From: the human T2T-CHM13v2.0 reference genome, Homo sapiens
Assembly: GCA_009914755.4 (NCBI GenBank)
Contig: CP086569.2
Location: 14,624,001 to 14,688,000 of the forward strand
Length of the DNA stretch: 64,000 bases
Direction: 5' to 3'
Below the pieces are notes generated by a model that was given only the letters and a program-made list of their open reading frames with translations, ran no database searches and had not been told where the DNA came from. Made by a program: the position numbers and the translations under genes. This document shows positions 33,980 through 36,070 of this stretch, piece by piece (position 1 is the first letter of the stretch; each line of letters opens with the position of its first letter).

Positions 33980-36070
33980 TAGGACGCCCCTGGCGGTCCT
34001 GAGGCCTCTTTGGTCCTGCTAAAGAGAGCACCCCTGCTGGCAGGCGTGGGCCTGCTCACACCTGGACGGAGAGGGGAGGTAGGAGGGGCAGGAAGCGGTT
34101 GGTGCGGACGGGGAGGCGACTGCGTGGGGTCTTCCGACATCACCCTTCAGCTGAGTGTCCGGGGTCTCATTCCCAGAGACCCGCCCACGGGCCCTGCGTC
34201 CGCCCCTCCTGTCACACGCCTTCCAGCCAATGGCGCGGCCGCCTGTCCTTCTCATGCCACCCCTGGAGGGCAAGCAAGGAGGGAGGTTGGCTGGGAAGGC
34301 CTGGCTGGATTTGAAGTATCAAACTTTCCGGCGTGGTCGTTGCGGCTGCTGGGTCCCCAGAGTGCGGCCCCGGCGAGGAGCATGGAGCATCGGCCAGCGC
34401 CCGGCGCCCTCGCATCCGATCGGCAGCCATGGTGCCCGAGGTGCCCGGCGCGGTCCTGACCCTCTGCCTCTGGCTGGAGGCCTCGGAGGGCTGCCTGGCG
34501 GCCGGCCCCGGAGCAGCTGCTGCTCAGCTGCTGGACGAGTCGCTGTCTGCCGGGAGCGTCCTGCGCGCCCGCTGCGCCTCCAGGTGCCTAAGCTTGCCAA
34601 TCATACGCATCTCTGCCTTCTTCCAGCACTTCCAGGTTAGTGGAGACTCCCGCCCGCCCCGGGTTCTTTCTGGTGCTGCGGCCGCGGCGGGAGTGCACCC
34701 GGGCGCGAGAGTGCACCCGGGCGCGCGCCGACCAGCCTAGGCGCGAAAAGTTTTCGGCCAGCGCAGCGAGCTGACCTGGCTTCTCCTGGGCGTGGATCTT
34801 ACAGTCGGGGTGCTTAAATCGTGTTTTCCAGCCTCCTCCCGGCTCCCGATACGAAAAAGAAGCCCGAGGCGTCCTGCCCCAGTCTTGTCCTTCCCAGCAG
34901 GAAACCAAAGGCGATTTTCCTGGGGAGGGAGAGTCGTGAATGCCGAGGGTGGGTGTGTGGATGTAGCTGTTTCCCGGGAATTGAGTGCCCGAGATTCCAG
35001 GCGGGTGTCGACTCCCGCAAAGTCCCAGGTGCTCAGGAGCACTGGGAGAGAGTCCGGGAGGCGCACCCCGCTGCGCCCAGCTGCGCCCGGGGACCTTGCC
35101 ACGAGCCCCAGCTCCGCAGGTGCCCGCAGGCCGACACTTTTTCTCTTTTGAACGATGATTTTTCACCATCCGCGGGCCGAGAGCTCGCTACCCACCCGTG
35201 GATTCCCCAGCCACGGCACTTGTGCCAAGTCGTGTTCCAGGGTGCGTGTATGCGCGTGTTGGAGGGTGCAGGTGGCTCCGCGCGCCTCATTTCGGAGTCC
35301 CTAAAGATTCAAGGTCTTGTACACTAGCGTAGAGCGTCAGAGAAGTGCCGGGGACAGGGGATTTGGCAGGACGGTGTTTGGATACGCCAGAGACAGGCTC
35401 CAAGGTCACTGTCCCCCAAACCCCATACTTAGGTTCTTTTAGCCGGCGAGTAGAGGAGTGTGTGTGTGCGCTTGGTCGCGTGTGTGGGAGTCTACGGGAA
35501 CCGCGCGCTTGGCTCCTGAGGGTTGCCCGGACCCTGCCCCGTGGCATGGACCCCCGCGGGGCCTGCGCGGAGGCTCTGGGTGCGGGTGGGCACACTATGG
35601 CAGGTTTCGGACTCAGGGGGTGCAGAGTACAGCTGCTGCCTCTCCCAGCCCTGTCGAGCACGCGAGTTCTGAAACCCTGCGTATATTTTTCACCTCTCCT
35701 GTCATTCTTACCTCTGTCTGTAGGTGCCCACCTGTTCCAAGTTTCCACCGTCTCGCCTCAGGGAAATTCTGGGGGGACCAAAAGGAGAGGTAGGTGCTTG
35801 TTAGGAAGGCTGGCTTCCTGGCTGGGCGGGAACTGGAAAGCAAACCCTTGGCTCTTAATCTCGGGGCCTCTCCTGCCGGGGAGGGGAGGGGGTCAAGTGA
35901 GGGCCCTGGAAATTAAGCTGCCAGAGGAGGCGATATTATAAGGGTGGAGTGTGGAAGTGGTTCCCCGTAGCCCTTGGGGACGATCTTAAACCTGCTGGCA
36001 AAGCTGGCGCGTGCTCGAGTGTGCCCGTTGTGTTTGTTCTAAATAATAGAAGGAGCGTCTCCGGGGAGTC
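33980..36070. promoter_or_regulatory. CpG island (~2 kb), probable promoter. Possibly bidirectional.
   Basis: Very high G+C and dense CpG (for example gcgcgaaaagttttcggccagcgcagcgagc and ccgcggcgggagtgcacccgggcgcgagagtgcacccgggcgcgcgccgacc), in sharp contrast to the AT-rich, CpG-depleted surroundings. All six frames stay open for long stretches, the usual artifact of GC-rich DNA. There are strong GT donor consensus sites on both strands. Confidence 0.75.
34429..34634 (+). CDS. Candidate first coding exon (hypothetical) with signal-peptide-like N-terminus and a 5' splice donor. Gene not identified.
   Basis: ATG sits in a good Kozak context (gcagccATGg). It translates to [69 protein letters not shown], which has a hydrophobic core AVLTLCLWL. 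The exon ends at cag|gttagt (34634|34635), a near-consensus donor. It lies inside the CpG island. I could not recall a matching protein. Confidence 0.2.

What the first reader, a model, noticed from the sequence alone, without database searches (positions are those of the whole stretch)
33980..36070. Isolated ~2-kb CpG island in an L1-dense AT-rich region, with candidate first exon and strong splice donors on both strands
This is the only CpG-dense, G+C-rich segment in the 64 kb. It is bounded on the left by an Alu at 33633-33939. On the + strand, an ATG in good Kozak context at 34429 opens a 68-codon reading frame whose N-terminus looks like a signal peptide ([18 protein letters not shown]...). 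The frame ends exactly at a near-consensus donor (cag|gttagt, 34634/34635). A second strong + strand donor (ggagag|gtaggt) lies at ~35787. A strong donor is also readable on the - strand at ~35706-35716 (reverse complement gacagag|gtaagaatg), preceded on that strand by a 43-codon ATG-initiated frame. This is the typical architecture of a bidirectional promoter, giving either a protein-coding gene and a divergent lncRNA or two lncRNAs. I could not match the peptide to any protein I know, so the coding call is weak. The promoter call is much stronger.
Basis: partly seen in the sequence, partly recalled or inferred. Interest (0 to 1): 0.6.

Follow-up and report, generated by a model that had tools for sequence, protein, structure and literature searches.

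The report
Promoter and exon 1 of ANOS2P
The CpG island is the promoter and first exon of ANOS2P (formerly KALP), the already-described, still-transcribed Y-chromosome pseudogene copy of the Kallmann-syndrome gene ANOS1, so it is real but ordinary and already known.

Summary
The CpG island is real. Over 33980-36070 G+C is 0.64 and CpG o/e is 0.72, against 0.21 for the rest of the window, and it is the only island in the 64 kb.

The "unmatched" peptide is exon 1 of an anosmin gene:
- It is 100% identical to a human GenBank translation named "similar to KALIG-1" (AAD54510.1).
- It matches solved human anosmin-1 (1zlg, E=4e-18) and Pfam's anosmin Cys_box.
- It differs from X-linked ANOS1 at 8 of 69 residues, 7 of them at positions identical in human X, sheep and pangolin.

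The promoter, ATG, reading frame and GT donor align with sheep and pangolin ANOS1, which carry an island at the same place. Published ANOS1/ANOS2P sexing primers all lie at 36666-37303. They predict Y-type products of 638/556/253 bp (published Y 641/571/253, X 499/437).

The locus is therefore ANOS2P (KALP), the Y-linked pseudogene that degraded in situ and is reported to be still transcribed.

The bidirectional-promoter idea has no support: the other two donors are at chance frequency and unconserved, and the minus-strand "ATG frame" has no ATG.

The feature is already known and of low interest.

The parts
33633..33939 (+). Alu element with A-rich tail that forms the left border of the island. 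It is context, not part of the gene, and its CpGs are unusually well preserved.
   Evidence: There are 20 family copies in the window. It aligns over 274/281 Alu consensus columns and keeps 13/26 ancestral CpGs, against 19% in Alus of the same age. A-tail at 33906-33938.
33980..35750 (.). CpG island (core ~34000-35600). It is the ancestral ANOS1-type promoter island, retained on this copy.
   Evidence: G+C 0.60-0.70 and CpG o/e 0.63-0.85 in every 500-bp window; sheep and pangolin ANOS1 have an island at the same relative position.
34159..34428 (+). Conserved proximal promoter plus 5' UTR. GC boxes at 34180-34186 and 34200-34206 and a CCAAT box at 34227-34231 sit in the near-invariant block cagCCAATggcgcggccgcctgtc. 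The TSS is inferred at about 34280-34340 and was not measured.
   Evidence: blastn gives 74-75% identity to sheep and pangolin starting at 34159/34178. Invariant columns in alignment A1. The TSS position is inferred from the usual CCAAT-to-TSS spacing.
34382..34459 (+). Out-of-frame upstream ATG (gagcATGg) opening a 25-codon uORF that overlaps the main start codon. It is absent from sheep and pangolin.
   Evidence: Sequence. The end of ORF 34010..34459. A1 columns 301-313 show GCTGGGAGCC in both orthologues.
34429..34635 (+). Coding part of exon 1 of ANOS2P (69 codons, phase 0). It encodes a degraded anosmin signal peptide and the start of the Cys-box.
   Evidence: 100% identity to AAD54510.1 'similar to KALIG-1 [Homo sapiens]'. 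1zlg anosmin-1, E=4e-18. Pfam PF17869, 32.1 bits against a cutoff of 29. tblastn. Codon analysis.
34636..34641 (+). Exon 1 / intron 1 splice donor (cag|gttagt).
   Evidence: The GT is in the same column in sheep and pangolin. P0001 joins FQHFQ to the exon-2 peptide NSGSLLWCQNHK. PWM score 8.65.
34636..64000 (+). First ~29 kb of intron 1. Exon 2 lies beyond the window.
   Evidence: No other anosmin exon was found by tblastn. Sheep intron 1 is 42.5-45.5 kb and is followed by a 48-nt exon 2. Collinear blocks at 35073-35216, 36170-36673, 37259-37431, 38449-38532 and 38646-38849.
36666..37303 (+). Published ANOS1/ANOS2P X-versus-Y sexing amplicon. F2 is at 36666, F1 at 36748, a degenerate second F1 site at 37051, and R1 at 37282-37303 on the minus strand. 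It contains an Alu insertion (36771-37059) flanked by the duplication gaaggaagatgggcc.
   Evidence: Primers from PMC9875541 all match exactly. Predicted products are 638/556/253 bp, against published Y 641/571/253 and X 499/437. Homopolymers T49 and A28 lie inside the two larger products.
31462..32129 (.). Upstream non-coding block collinear with the ANOS1 upstream regions of sheep and pangolin.
   Evidence: blastn gives 74% identity over 673 bp to sheep and 68% over a longer stretch to pangolin. Function was not assessed.

Best explanation
The segment is the 5' end of human ANOS2P (formerly KALP), the Y-linked, unprocessed pseudogene that degraded in situ from the X/Y ancestor of ANOS1 (KAL1, anosmin-1). 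It comprises the ancestral TATA-less, GC-box/CCAAT-box CpG-island promoter, the 5' UTR, coding exon 1 (34429-34635) and the start of a long intron 1.

How it works:
- Inferred: the island has stayed unmethylated in the germline and still acts as an RNA polymerase II promoter. NF-Y and Sp1-type factors would bind the conserved CCAAT and GC boxes, with the TSS roughly 100-150 nt upstream of the ATG.
- Transcripts are spliced from the conserved donor at 34636 to a small exon 2 that lies more than 29 kb downstream.
- From the literature: ANOS2P RNA is male-specific and low in abundance, and downstream exons carry frameshifts and stop codons, so no anosmin is made.
- Shown here: exon 1 is still an open frame but is evolving without protein-level constraint. 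It has 8 replacements in 69 codons relative to ANOS1. Three introduce glutamate into the signal peptide, and two fall in the CLSLQITRISAFF motif, which fish keep nearly unchanged (CLSLHITRISAFF).
For: Identity of the peptide:
- It is 100% identical over 69 aa to AAD54510.1 / UniRef100_Q9UDP4 'similar to KALIG-1 [Homo sapiens]', which continues into an anosmin-like exon 2.
- Human anosmin-1 PDB chain 1zlg_A matches at E=4e-18, with 5 substitutions in its 46 overlapping residues.
- Pfam's anosmin Cys_box scores above its gathering cutoff.

Not the X copy:
- It differs from ANOS1 at 8 of 69 residues. Seven of those positions are identical in human X, sheep and pangolin.

Orthology of the locus:
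- It is collinear with the 5' regions of sheep and pangolin ANOS1. The CCAAT and GC boxes are invariant, the ATG, frame and GT donor are conserved, and a CpG island sits in the same place.

Y-type markers:
- All three published ANOS1/ANOS2P primers lie at 36666-37303. The predicted products are Y-type, including the Y-only 253-bp second product, which matches exactly.

Literature:
- KALP/ANOS2P is the Y homologue, degraded in situ with frameshifts and stops, and HAVANA annotates it as still transcribed (PMC5860151).
- It lies on Yq and diverged from ANOS1 about 45-50 Myr ago (PMC10160557).
- Its RNA is male-specific in placenta (value 1.28 in males against 0.01 in females; PMC5769539) and is found in fetal brain (PMC12032161).

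Island maintenance:
- CpG o/e is 0.63-0.85 in the island, while Alus of similar age in the same window keep only 19% of their CpGs. The Alu abutting the island keeps 50% (p=0.0008).
Against: - No tool here could map the window to a human assembly, so the Y location rests on the amplicon sizes, the named GenBank translation and the literature.
- Two of the three predicted amplicons differ from the published Y sizes by 3 and 15 bp. T49 and A28 homopolymers inside those amplicons could explain this, but that was not proven.
- Exon 1 itself carries no disabling mutation, so pseudogene status cannot be shown inside this window.
- Residues 1-23 of human ANOS1 used in the comparison were recalled rather than tool-verified. 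Orthologues support positions 4 and 17.
- The TSS, promoter activity and methylation state are inferred. No CAGE, RNA-seq or methylome data were available.
- The CpG-loss comparison (18 of 39 shared sites lost in this lineage) is biased, because sheep and pangolin share a branch.
Confidence: 0.93

Rival explanations
1. It is the promoter and exon 1 of the functional X-linked ANOS1 gene, in human or another primate.
For: The exon, promoter motifs, donor and island architecture are the same as in mammalian ANOS1. Exon 1 is an intact ORF.
Against: - Five substitutions against the solved human anosmin-1 sequence in 46 residues, and 8 in 69 overall, at positions that are otherwise invariant across mammals.
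- Exact identity instead to a separate human record that is only 'similar to' KALIG-1.
- The X amplicons should be 499 and 437 bp. The window gives 638, 556 and 253 bp.
Confidence: 0.02
2. It is the KALP/ANOS2P orthologue on the Y chromosome of a non-human great ape rather than of human.
For: Great-ape Y copies would be only ~1-2% diverged, so 69 identical residues and 66 identical primer bases do not strictly exclude this.
Against: The only exact database match is a Homo sapiens record. All three human-designed primers match with 0 mismatches, and the 253-bp product is exact.
Confidence: 0.03
3. One reading: a bidirectional CpG-island promoter that drives a novel signal-peptide gene or lncRNA on the + strand and a divergent lncRNA on the - strand, using the donors at 35790 (+) and 35711 (-).
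For: - CpG-island promoters commonly fire in both directions (general knowledge).
- The two donor-like sites score well, 9.1 and 10.0 bits.
- A computational model (P0017) splices exon 1 to an acceptor at 35000/35001.
Against: - The + strand gene is not novel.
- The stretch 35217-36047, which holds both extra donors, does not align to sheep or pangolin.
- Donor-like sites are near chance density.
- The minus-strand frame has no ATG.
- The proposed minus exon lies downstream of the + strand start, so the transcripts would overlap rather than diverge.
- Rfam finds no known RNA family in the window.
Confidence: 0.12

Closest known systems
ANOS2P (KALP), human Yq11 anosmin pseudogene (del Castillo et al. 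1992, cited in PMC5860151)
   Same: The exon-1 peptide is identical to the human 'similar to KALIG-1' translation. The amplicon pattern is Y-type. The copy is diverged from ANOS1 at conserved residues. The retained promoter island fits the reported transcription.
   Different: Nothing differs as far as could be tested. The disabling frameshifts and stops that define the pseudogene lie in exons outside this window.
ANOS1 (KAL1) promoter and exon 1, Xp22.31
   Same: Same CCAAT/GC-box CpG-island promoter, same ATG, same 207-nt coding exon 1 with a phase-0 donor, and a long intron 1 before a 48-nt exon 2.
   Different: Eight amino-acid replacements, including G4E, A17E and S20E in the signal peptide and Q57P and T59I in the Cys-box. 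There is an extra out-of-frame upstream ATG not seen in sheep or pangolin. Shared CpG sites show somewhat greater loss.
Other transcribed pseudogenes with X homologues on the human Y (e.g. TXLNGY, GYG2P1, PRKY)
   Same: They are Y copies of X-linked genes that still give male-specific RNA, and they are listed alongside ANOS2P.
   Different: They come from different ancestral genes. No sequence comparison with them was made here.

Membership tests
Anosmin gene family (ANOS1-type exon 1) | N-terminal signal peptide followed by the anosmin cysteine-rich box (Pfam PF17869) | tested here: met
   PF17869 scores 32.1 bits against a cutoff of 29. 1zlg anosmin-1 matches at E=4e-18. All 16 database hits carry PF17869.
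Anosmin gene family (ANOS1-type exon 1) | Orthologous gene structure: same ATG, 207-nt coding exon 1, phase-0 GT donor, and collinear flanks | tested here: met
   Alignment A1 with sheep and pangolin. Seven collinear blastn blocks.
Anosmin gene family (ANOS1-type exon 1) | Downstream WAP and fibronectin type III exons | tested here: inconclusive
   tblastn with full-length anosmin-1 finds only exon 1 in the window. This is expected, because intron 1 is 42-45 kb in sheep and only 29 kb of it is in the window.
ANOS2P / KALP (human Y-linked pseudogene) | A human sequence distinct from X-linked ANOS1 | tested here: met
   100% identical to the Homo sapiens record AAD54510.1 'similar to KALIG-1'. 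Five differences from solved human anosmin-1 in 46 residues and 8 in 69 overall.
ANOS2P / KALP (human Y-linked pseudogene) | Y-specific structure at the published X/Y discriminating marker | tested here: met
   Predicted products are 638, 556 and 253 bp. Published sizes are Y 641, 571 and 253 bp and X 499 and 437 bp. The 3 and 15 bp deviations lie across T49 and A28 tracts.
ANOS2P / KALP (human Y-linked pseudogene) | Frameshifts, premature stops or exon deletions that disable the reading frame | not testable with these tools
   Exon 1 is intact and the other exons are outside the window. One hint: the annotated translation P0001 stops at residue 81, where sheep has CAA (Gln). The literature statement is in PMC5860151.
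ANOS2P / KALP (human Y-linked pseudogene) | Physical location on Yq11 | not testable with these tools
   No human genome assembly is available to the tools. The location is taken from PMC10160557 and PMC5860151.
CpG-island RNA polymerase II promoter | Length >=500 bp, G+C >=0.5, CpG o/e >=0.6 | tested here: met
   a contiguous run of passing windows over 33501-35750.
CpG-island RNA polymerase II promoter | Conserved core-promoter motifs upstream of the first exon | tested here: met
   The CCAAT box (34227-34231) sits in a block that is almost fully invariant. The GC box at 34200-34206 and the GC-box-like motif at 34180-34186 are largely conserved in sheep and pangolin.
CpG-island RNA polymerase II promoter | Experimentally mapped TSS, active chromatin and an unmethylated state | not testable with these tools
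   Indirect evidence only: transcription reported in the literature, and CpG preservation relative to Alu controls in the same window.
Bidirectional promoter | A second, divergent TSS or first exon on the opposite strand, upstream of the + strand TSS | tested here: not met
It has no ATG and lies in sequence that does not align to the orthologous loci. A different, unannotated divergent TSS cannot be excluded without CAGE.

The most novel reading that the evidence does not exclude
The ANOS2P promoter and its intact exon 1 may be maintained because the transcript has a male-specific function. It could act as a regulatory RNA, or it could encode a short secreted peptide of about 81 residues made of the anosmin N-terminus (signal peptide plus the start of the Cys-box). 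This would explain why the island and the open frame have survived roughly 45-50 Myr on the Y. The evidence here leans the other way. There are three glutamates in the signal peptide, replacements in an otherwise conserved motif, and a new out-of-frame upstream ATG in strong context. Island retention needs only continued germline hypomethylation.
Probability: 0.03. Interest if true: 0.45.

Novelty: already known. Interest (0 to 1): 0.07.

Why it matters
It matters little beyond correct annotation. The finding shows that a reader working from sequence alone can correctly pick out a promoter and first exon, and that the "orphan" peptide is the anosmin N-terminus.

The locus has some practical relevance. 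ANOS1/ANOS2P homology mediates X-Y translocations and gene conversion that complicate Kallmann-syndrome diagnostics. The stretch 36666-37303 is a usable X/Y sexing marker.

One modest biological point follows. The promoter island of a pseudogene that diverged from ANOS1 about 45-50 Myr ago is still island-grade, and it even shields the neighbouring Alu from CpG decay. This fits with continued germline hypomethylation and transcription.

Tried and rejected
- Rfam scan of the whole window at gathering thresholds found no matches, so no known structured RNA explains the island.
- tblastn of full-length anosmin-1 and of the exon-2 peptide against the window found no further exons.
- A metagenome-contig scan for the conserved exon-1/donor 29-mer, intended to recover human X-linked ANOS1 DNA for a direct X-Y comparison, gave 0 hits. 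X-Y nucleotide divergence could therefore not be measured.
- The look-up of encoding contigs for the whale anosmin fragment P0002 found no record.
- The supplement of PMC9875541, which should contain the X and Y amplicon sequences, is not held.
- A literature search for a KAL1 promoter study returned only general papers on escape from X inactivation.
- P0017, a 119-aa UniParc model, looked like possible evidence for an alternative transcript. It is a three-piece computational model lying entirely within this window (32365-~32400, 34360-34635, 35001-35045) and adds no independent support.
- I considered treating CpG loss at orthologous sites as proof of island erosion. I rejected it as biased, because the two comparison species share a branch.
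- I ran no further search on the minus-strand frame, since it lacks an ATG and is unconserved.
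Full report
**Observation**

The region is a genuine CpG island. Over 33980-36070 G+C is 0.636 and CpG observed/expected is 0.72. It holds 151 CpGs, which is 22% of the window's CpGs. The rest of the window has o/e 0.21. 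All 500-bp windows meeting G+C>=0.5 and o/e>=0.6 form one contiguous run, 33501-35750, with the core at about 34000-35600.

The only other CpG blips come from repeats. One is a young Alu at 52536-52849. The others lie at the G+C-rich 5' ends of two minus-strand L1 copies, near 28.8 kb and 59 kb.

The Alu on the left flank (33633-33939) is confirmed. So is the L1-rich context: four copies 90-94% identical to each other, with Pfam L1 ORF1 and reverse-transcriptase domains.

- The ATG at 34429 (gccATGg) opens a 69-codon frame, not 68. The frame ends at 34635, with the donor GT at 34636.
- The minus-strand "43-codon ATG-initiated frame" is not there. No frame contains an ATG before that donor, and the mechanical ORF begins at TTG.

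**What the peptide is**

- A search of the large protein collection returned 16 hits, all carrying the anosmin Cys_box domain PF17869.
- The top hit is 100% identical over all 69 residues. It is AAD54510.1 / UniRef100_Q9UDP4, "similar to KALIG-1 [Homo sapiens]". KALIG-1 is an old name for KAL1/ANOS1.
- That record continues ...FQHFQ|NSGSLLWCQNHK. Its annotators therefore spliced this exon, at exactly this donor, to an anosmin-like exon 2.
- The solved human anosmin-1 chain 1zlg_A matches residues 24-69 at E=4e-18, but with 5 substitutions.
- Pfam's Cys_box scores above its gathering threshold.

I verified a full-length anosmin-1 sequence against 1zlg_A over 657 residues, with one V/I difference, and used it in tblastn against the window. 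Only exon 1 is present. This is expected. In sheep, the next exon is a 48-nt exon encoding NNGSLVWCQNHKQCSK, with canonical ag/gt borders, and it lies 42.5-45.5 kb downstream. The window contains only 29 kb of intron 1.

**Orthology of the locus**

I fetched the ANOS1 exon-1 loci of sheep (L001, L002) and pangolin (L003). The window is collinear with them in seven blocks:
- an upstream block at 31462-32129;
- promoter plus exon 1 at 34159/34178-34637, at 74-75% identity;
- intronic blocks at 35073-35216, 36170-36673, 37259-37431, 38449-38532 and 38646-38849.

Both species carry a CpG island at the same relative position, with o/e 0.78-0.95.

In the three-way alignment the following are conserved:
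- a CCAAT box (window 34227-34231) inside the near-invariant block CAGCCAATGGCGCGGCCGCCTGTC;
- a GC box at 34200-34206 and a GC-box-like motif at 34180-34186;
- the ATG, the reading frame and the GT donor.

The island is therefore the ancestral ANOS1 promoter island, not something that arose locally.

**X copy or Y copy**

Three lines of evidence say this is the Y-linked pseudogene ANOS2P (KALP) and not ANOS1.

1. The sequence is not human ANOS1. It differs at 8 of 69 residues: G4E, A17E, S20E, R33Q, R34L, Q45L, Q57P and T59I. At seven of these positions human X, sheep and pangolin are all identical, so the changes belong to this copy's own lineage. Residues 1-23 of human ANOS1 were recalled rather than tool-verified, but the orthologues support G4 and A17.
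2. The sequence is exactly the human "similar to KALIG-1" sequence. The literature describes a single human homologue of ANOS1. [quoted passage not shown] It degraded in situ, carries frameshifts and premature stops, and HAVANA annotates it as still transcribed (PMC5860151; PMC10160557).
3. A published X/Y sexing assay gives ANOS1/ANOS2P primers (PMC9875541). All three primers are in the window with no mismatches, at 36666, 36748 and 37282-37303 on the minus strand, plus a degenerate second F1 site at 37051. The predicted products are 638, 556 and 253 bp. The published Y sizes are 641, 571 and 253 bp, and the published X sizes are 499 and 437 bp. The 3 and 15 bp deviations fall in products that span a T49 tract and an A28 tract, and such tracts vary in length. 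The 253-bp product, which the paper lists only for the Y, spans neither tract and matches exactly.

**Mechanism**

Shown here:
- The promoter motifs, island, start codon, exon and donor are intact and orthologous to those of ANOS1.
- The coding sequence shows relaxed constraint. Three glutamates have been introduced into the signal peptide. Two replacements fall in the CLSLQITRISAFF motif, which fish keep nearly unchanged as CLSLHITRISAFF.
- On the lineage leading to this copy there are 9 non-synonymous and 8 synonymous changes. Sheep has 4 and 7.
- An out-of-frame ATG in strong context (gagcATGg, 34382) opens a uORF that overlaps the main start. It is absent in sheep and pangolin.

Taken from the literature:
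- ANOS2P RNA is male-specific. In first-trimester placenta the value is 1.28 in males against 0.01 in females. It is also among the Y genes detected in fetal brain.

Inferred:
- The island remains unmethylated in the germline and drives this transcription from a TSS about 100-150 nt upstream of the ATG.

An internal control supports the hypomethylation inference. Ten Alus in the window with 8-12% non-CpG divergence retain only 46 of 243 ancestral CpGs (19%). The island keeps o/e at about 0.63-0.85, and the equally old Alu abutting it keeps 13 of 26 CpGs (Fisher p=0.0008).

The island may be somewhat eroded. It has lost 18 of 39 CpG sites shared by sheep and pangolin. That comparison is biased, however, because those two species share a branch.

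**The bidirectional-promoter idea**

I scored all 6628 GT sites in the window on both strands with a simple donor weight matrix. The matrix frequencies were recalled and are approximate. The window has 84 sites scoring >=8 bits. About 2.7 would be expected in the island from density, and 6 are observed.

The one donor validated by homology (34636, 8.65 bits) ranks 45th. It scores below the two unvalidated donors, 35711 (-) at 9.96 bits and 35790 (+) at 9.08 bits.

Both unvalidated donors lie in 35217-36047, which aligns to neither orthologous locus. The minus-strand frame lacks an ATG. A minus-strand exon at about 35712-35843 would also sit 1.3 kb downstream of the + strand start, so its transcript would overlap ANOS2P exon 1 in antisense rather than diverge from it.

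Rfam finds nothing in the window. Generic upstream-antisense transcription from the island remains possible, but these tools cannot test it.

**Comparison with what is known, and verdict**

This is ANOS2P itself, a locus described in 1992 and renamed in 2016. The features that could be tested in the window are met: anosmin homology, conserved gene structure, distinctness from the X copy, identity to the human record, and the Y-type marker. The features that define pseudogene status and chromosomal location lie outside the window or outside the tools.

The novelty rating is "already known", and interest is low.

The most novel reading not excluded is that the retained promoter and open exon 1 reflect a functional male-specific RNA or a short secreted peptide. 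The substitution pattern argues against it.

Noticed in passing
window 33633-33939: The Alu abutting the island keeps 13 of 26 ancestral CpG sites. Ten Alus of similar age in the same window (8-12% non-CpG divergence) keep 46 of 243 (19%); Fisher p=0.0008. This suggests the island's germline-hypomethylated domain extends about 300 bp into the repeat.
   Followed up: partly
window 34382-34459: An out-of-frame upstream ATG in strong Kozak context (gagcATGg) opens a 25-codon uORF that overlaps the anosmin start codon. Sheep and pangolin have GCTGGGAGCC at this position. Whether it is specific to the Y copy or shared with human ANOS1 could not be tested.
   Followed up: partly
window 34687-34725: An 18-bp tandem duplication (GCGAGAGTGCACCCGGGC, 2.2 copies, 95% match) lies just inside intron 1.
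   Followed up: no
window 36697-37075: A T49 homopolymer is followed by an Alu (36771-37059, A28 tail) flanked by the direct duplication gaaggaagatgggcc. The Alu is inserted next to an older Alu-like monomer. This structure creates the second primer site and the 253-bp product that the sexing paper lists only for the Y.
   Followed up: partly
window 5480-10730 (+), 23328-29370 (-), 53312-59357 (-), 59459-64000 (-): There are four L1 copies, 90-94% identical to one another. Two are about 6 kb and full-length, and the last two lie head-to-tail. All have broken ORFs, the longest being a 554-aa ORF2 fragment.
   Followed up: partly
window 52536-52849: A young Alu with 1.7% non-CpG divergence from the consensus and 21 of 26 CpGs intact. 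It accounts for the only other CpG-rich blip in the window (52251-52750, o/e 0.86).
   Followed up: yes
window 31462-32129 and 36170-36673: Two 500-670 bp non-coding blocks are ~74% identical to, and collinear with, the sheep ANOS1 locus. They also align to pangolin. They could be conserved regulatory elements or simply alignable ancestral DNA.
   Followed up: no
window 32365-32400, 34360-34635, 35001-35045: UniParc/MetaClust entry UPI0000E0C955 (P0017, 119 aa) is a three-exon computational model built from this exact sequence. It adds an upstream MEDNFSVDLEVA exon and an alternative acceptor at 35000/35001. No independent support was found.
   Followed up: partly
exon 2 of ANOS2P (outside the window); L001 49739-49786: The human 'similar to KALIG-1' translation stops at residue 81 (…WCQNHK), where sheep exon 2 continues with CAA (Gln)-Cys-Ser-Lys. 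This suggests a C>T nonsense mutation at codon 82 of the Y copy. It is an inference only.
   Followed up: no
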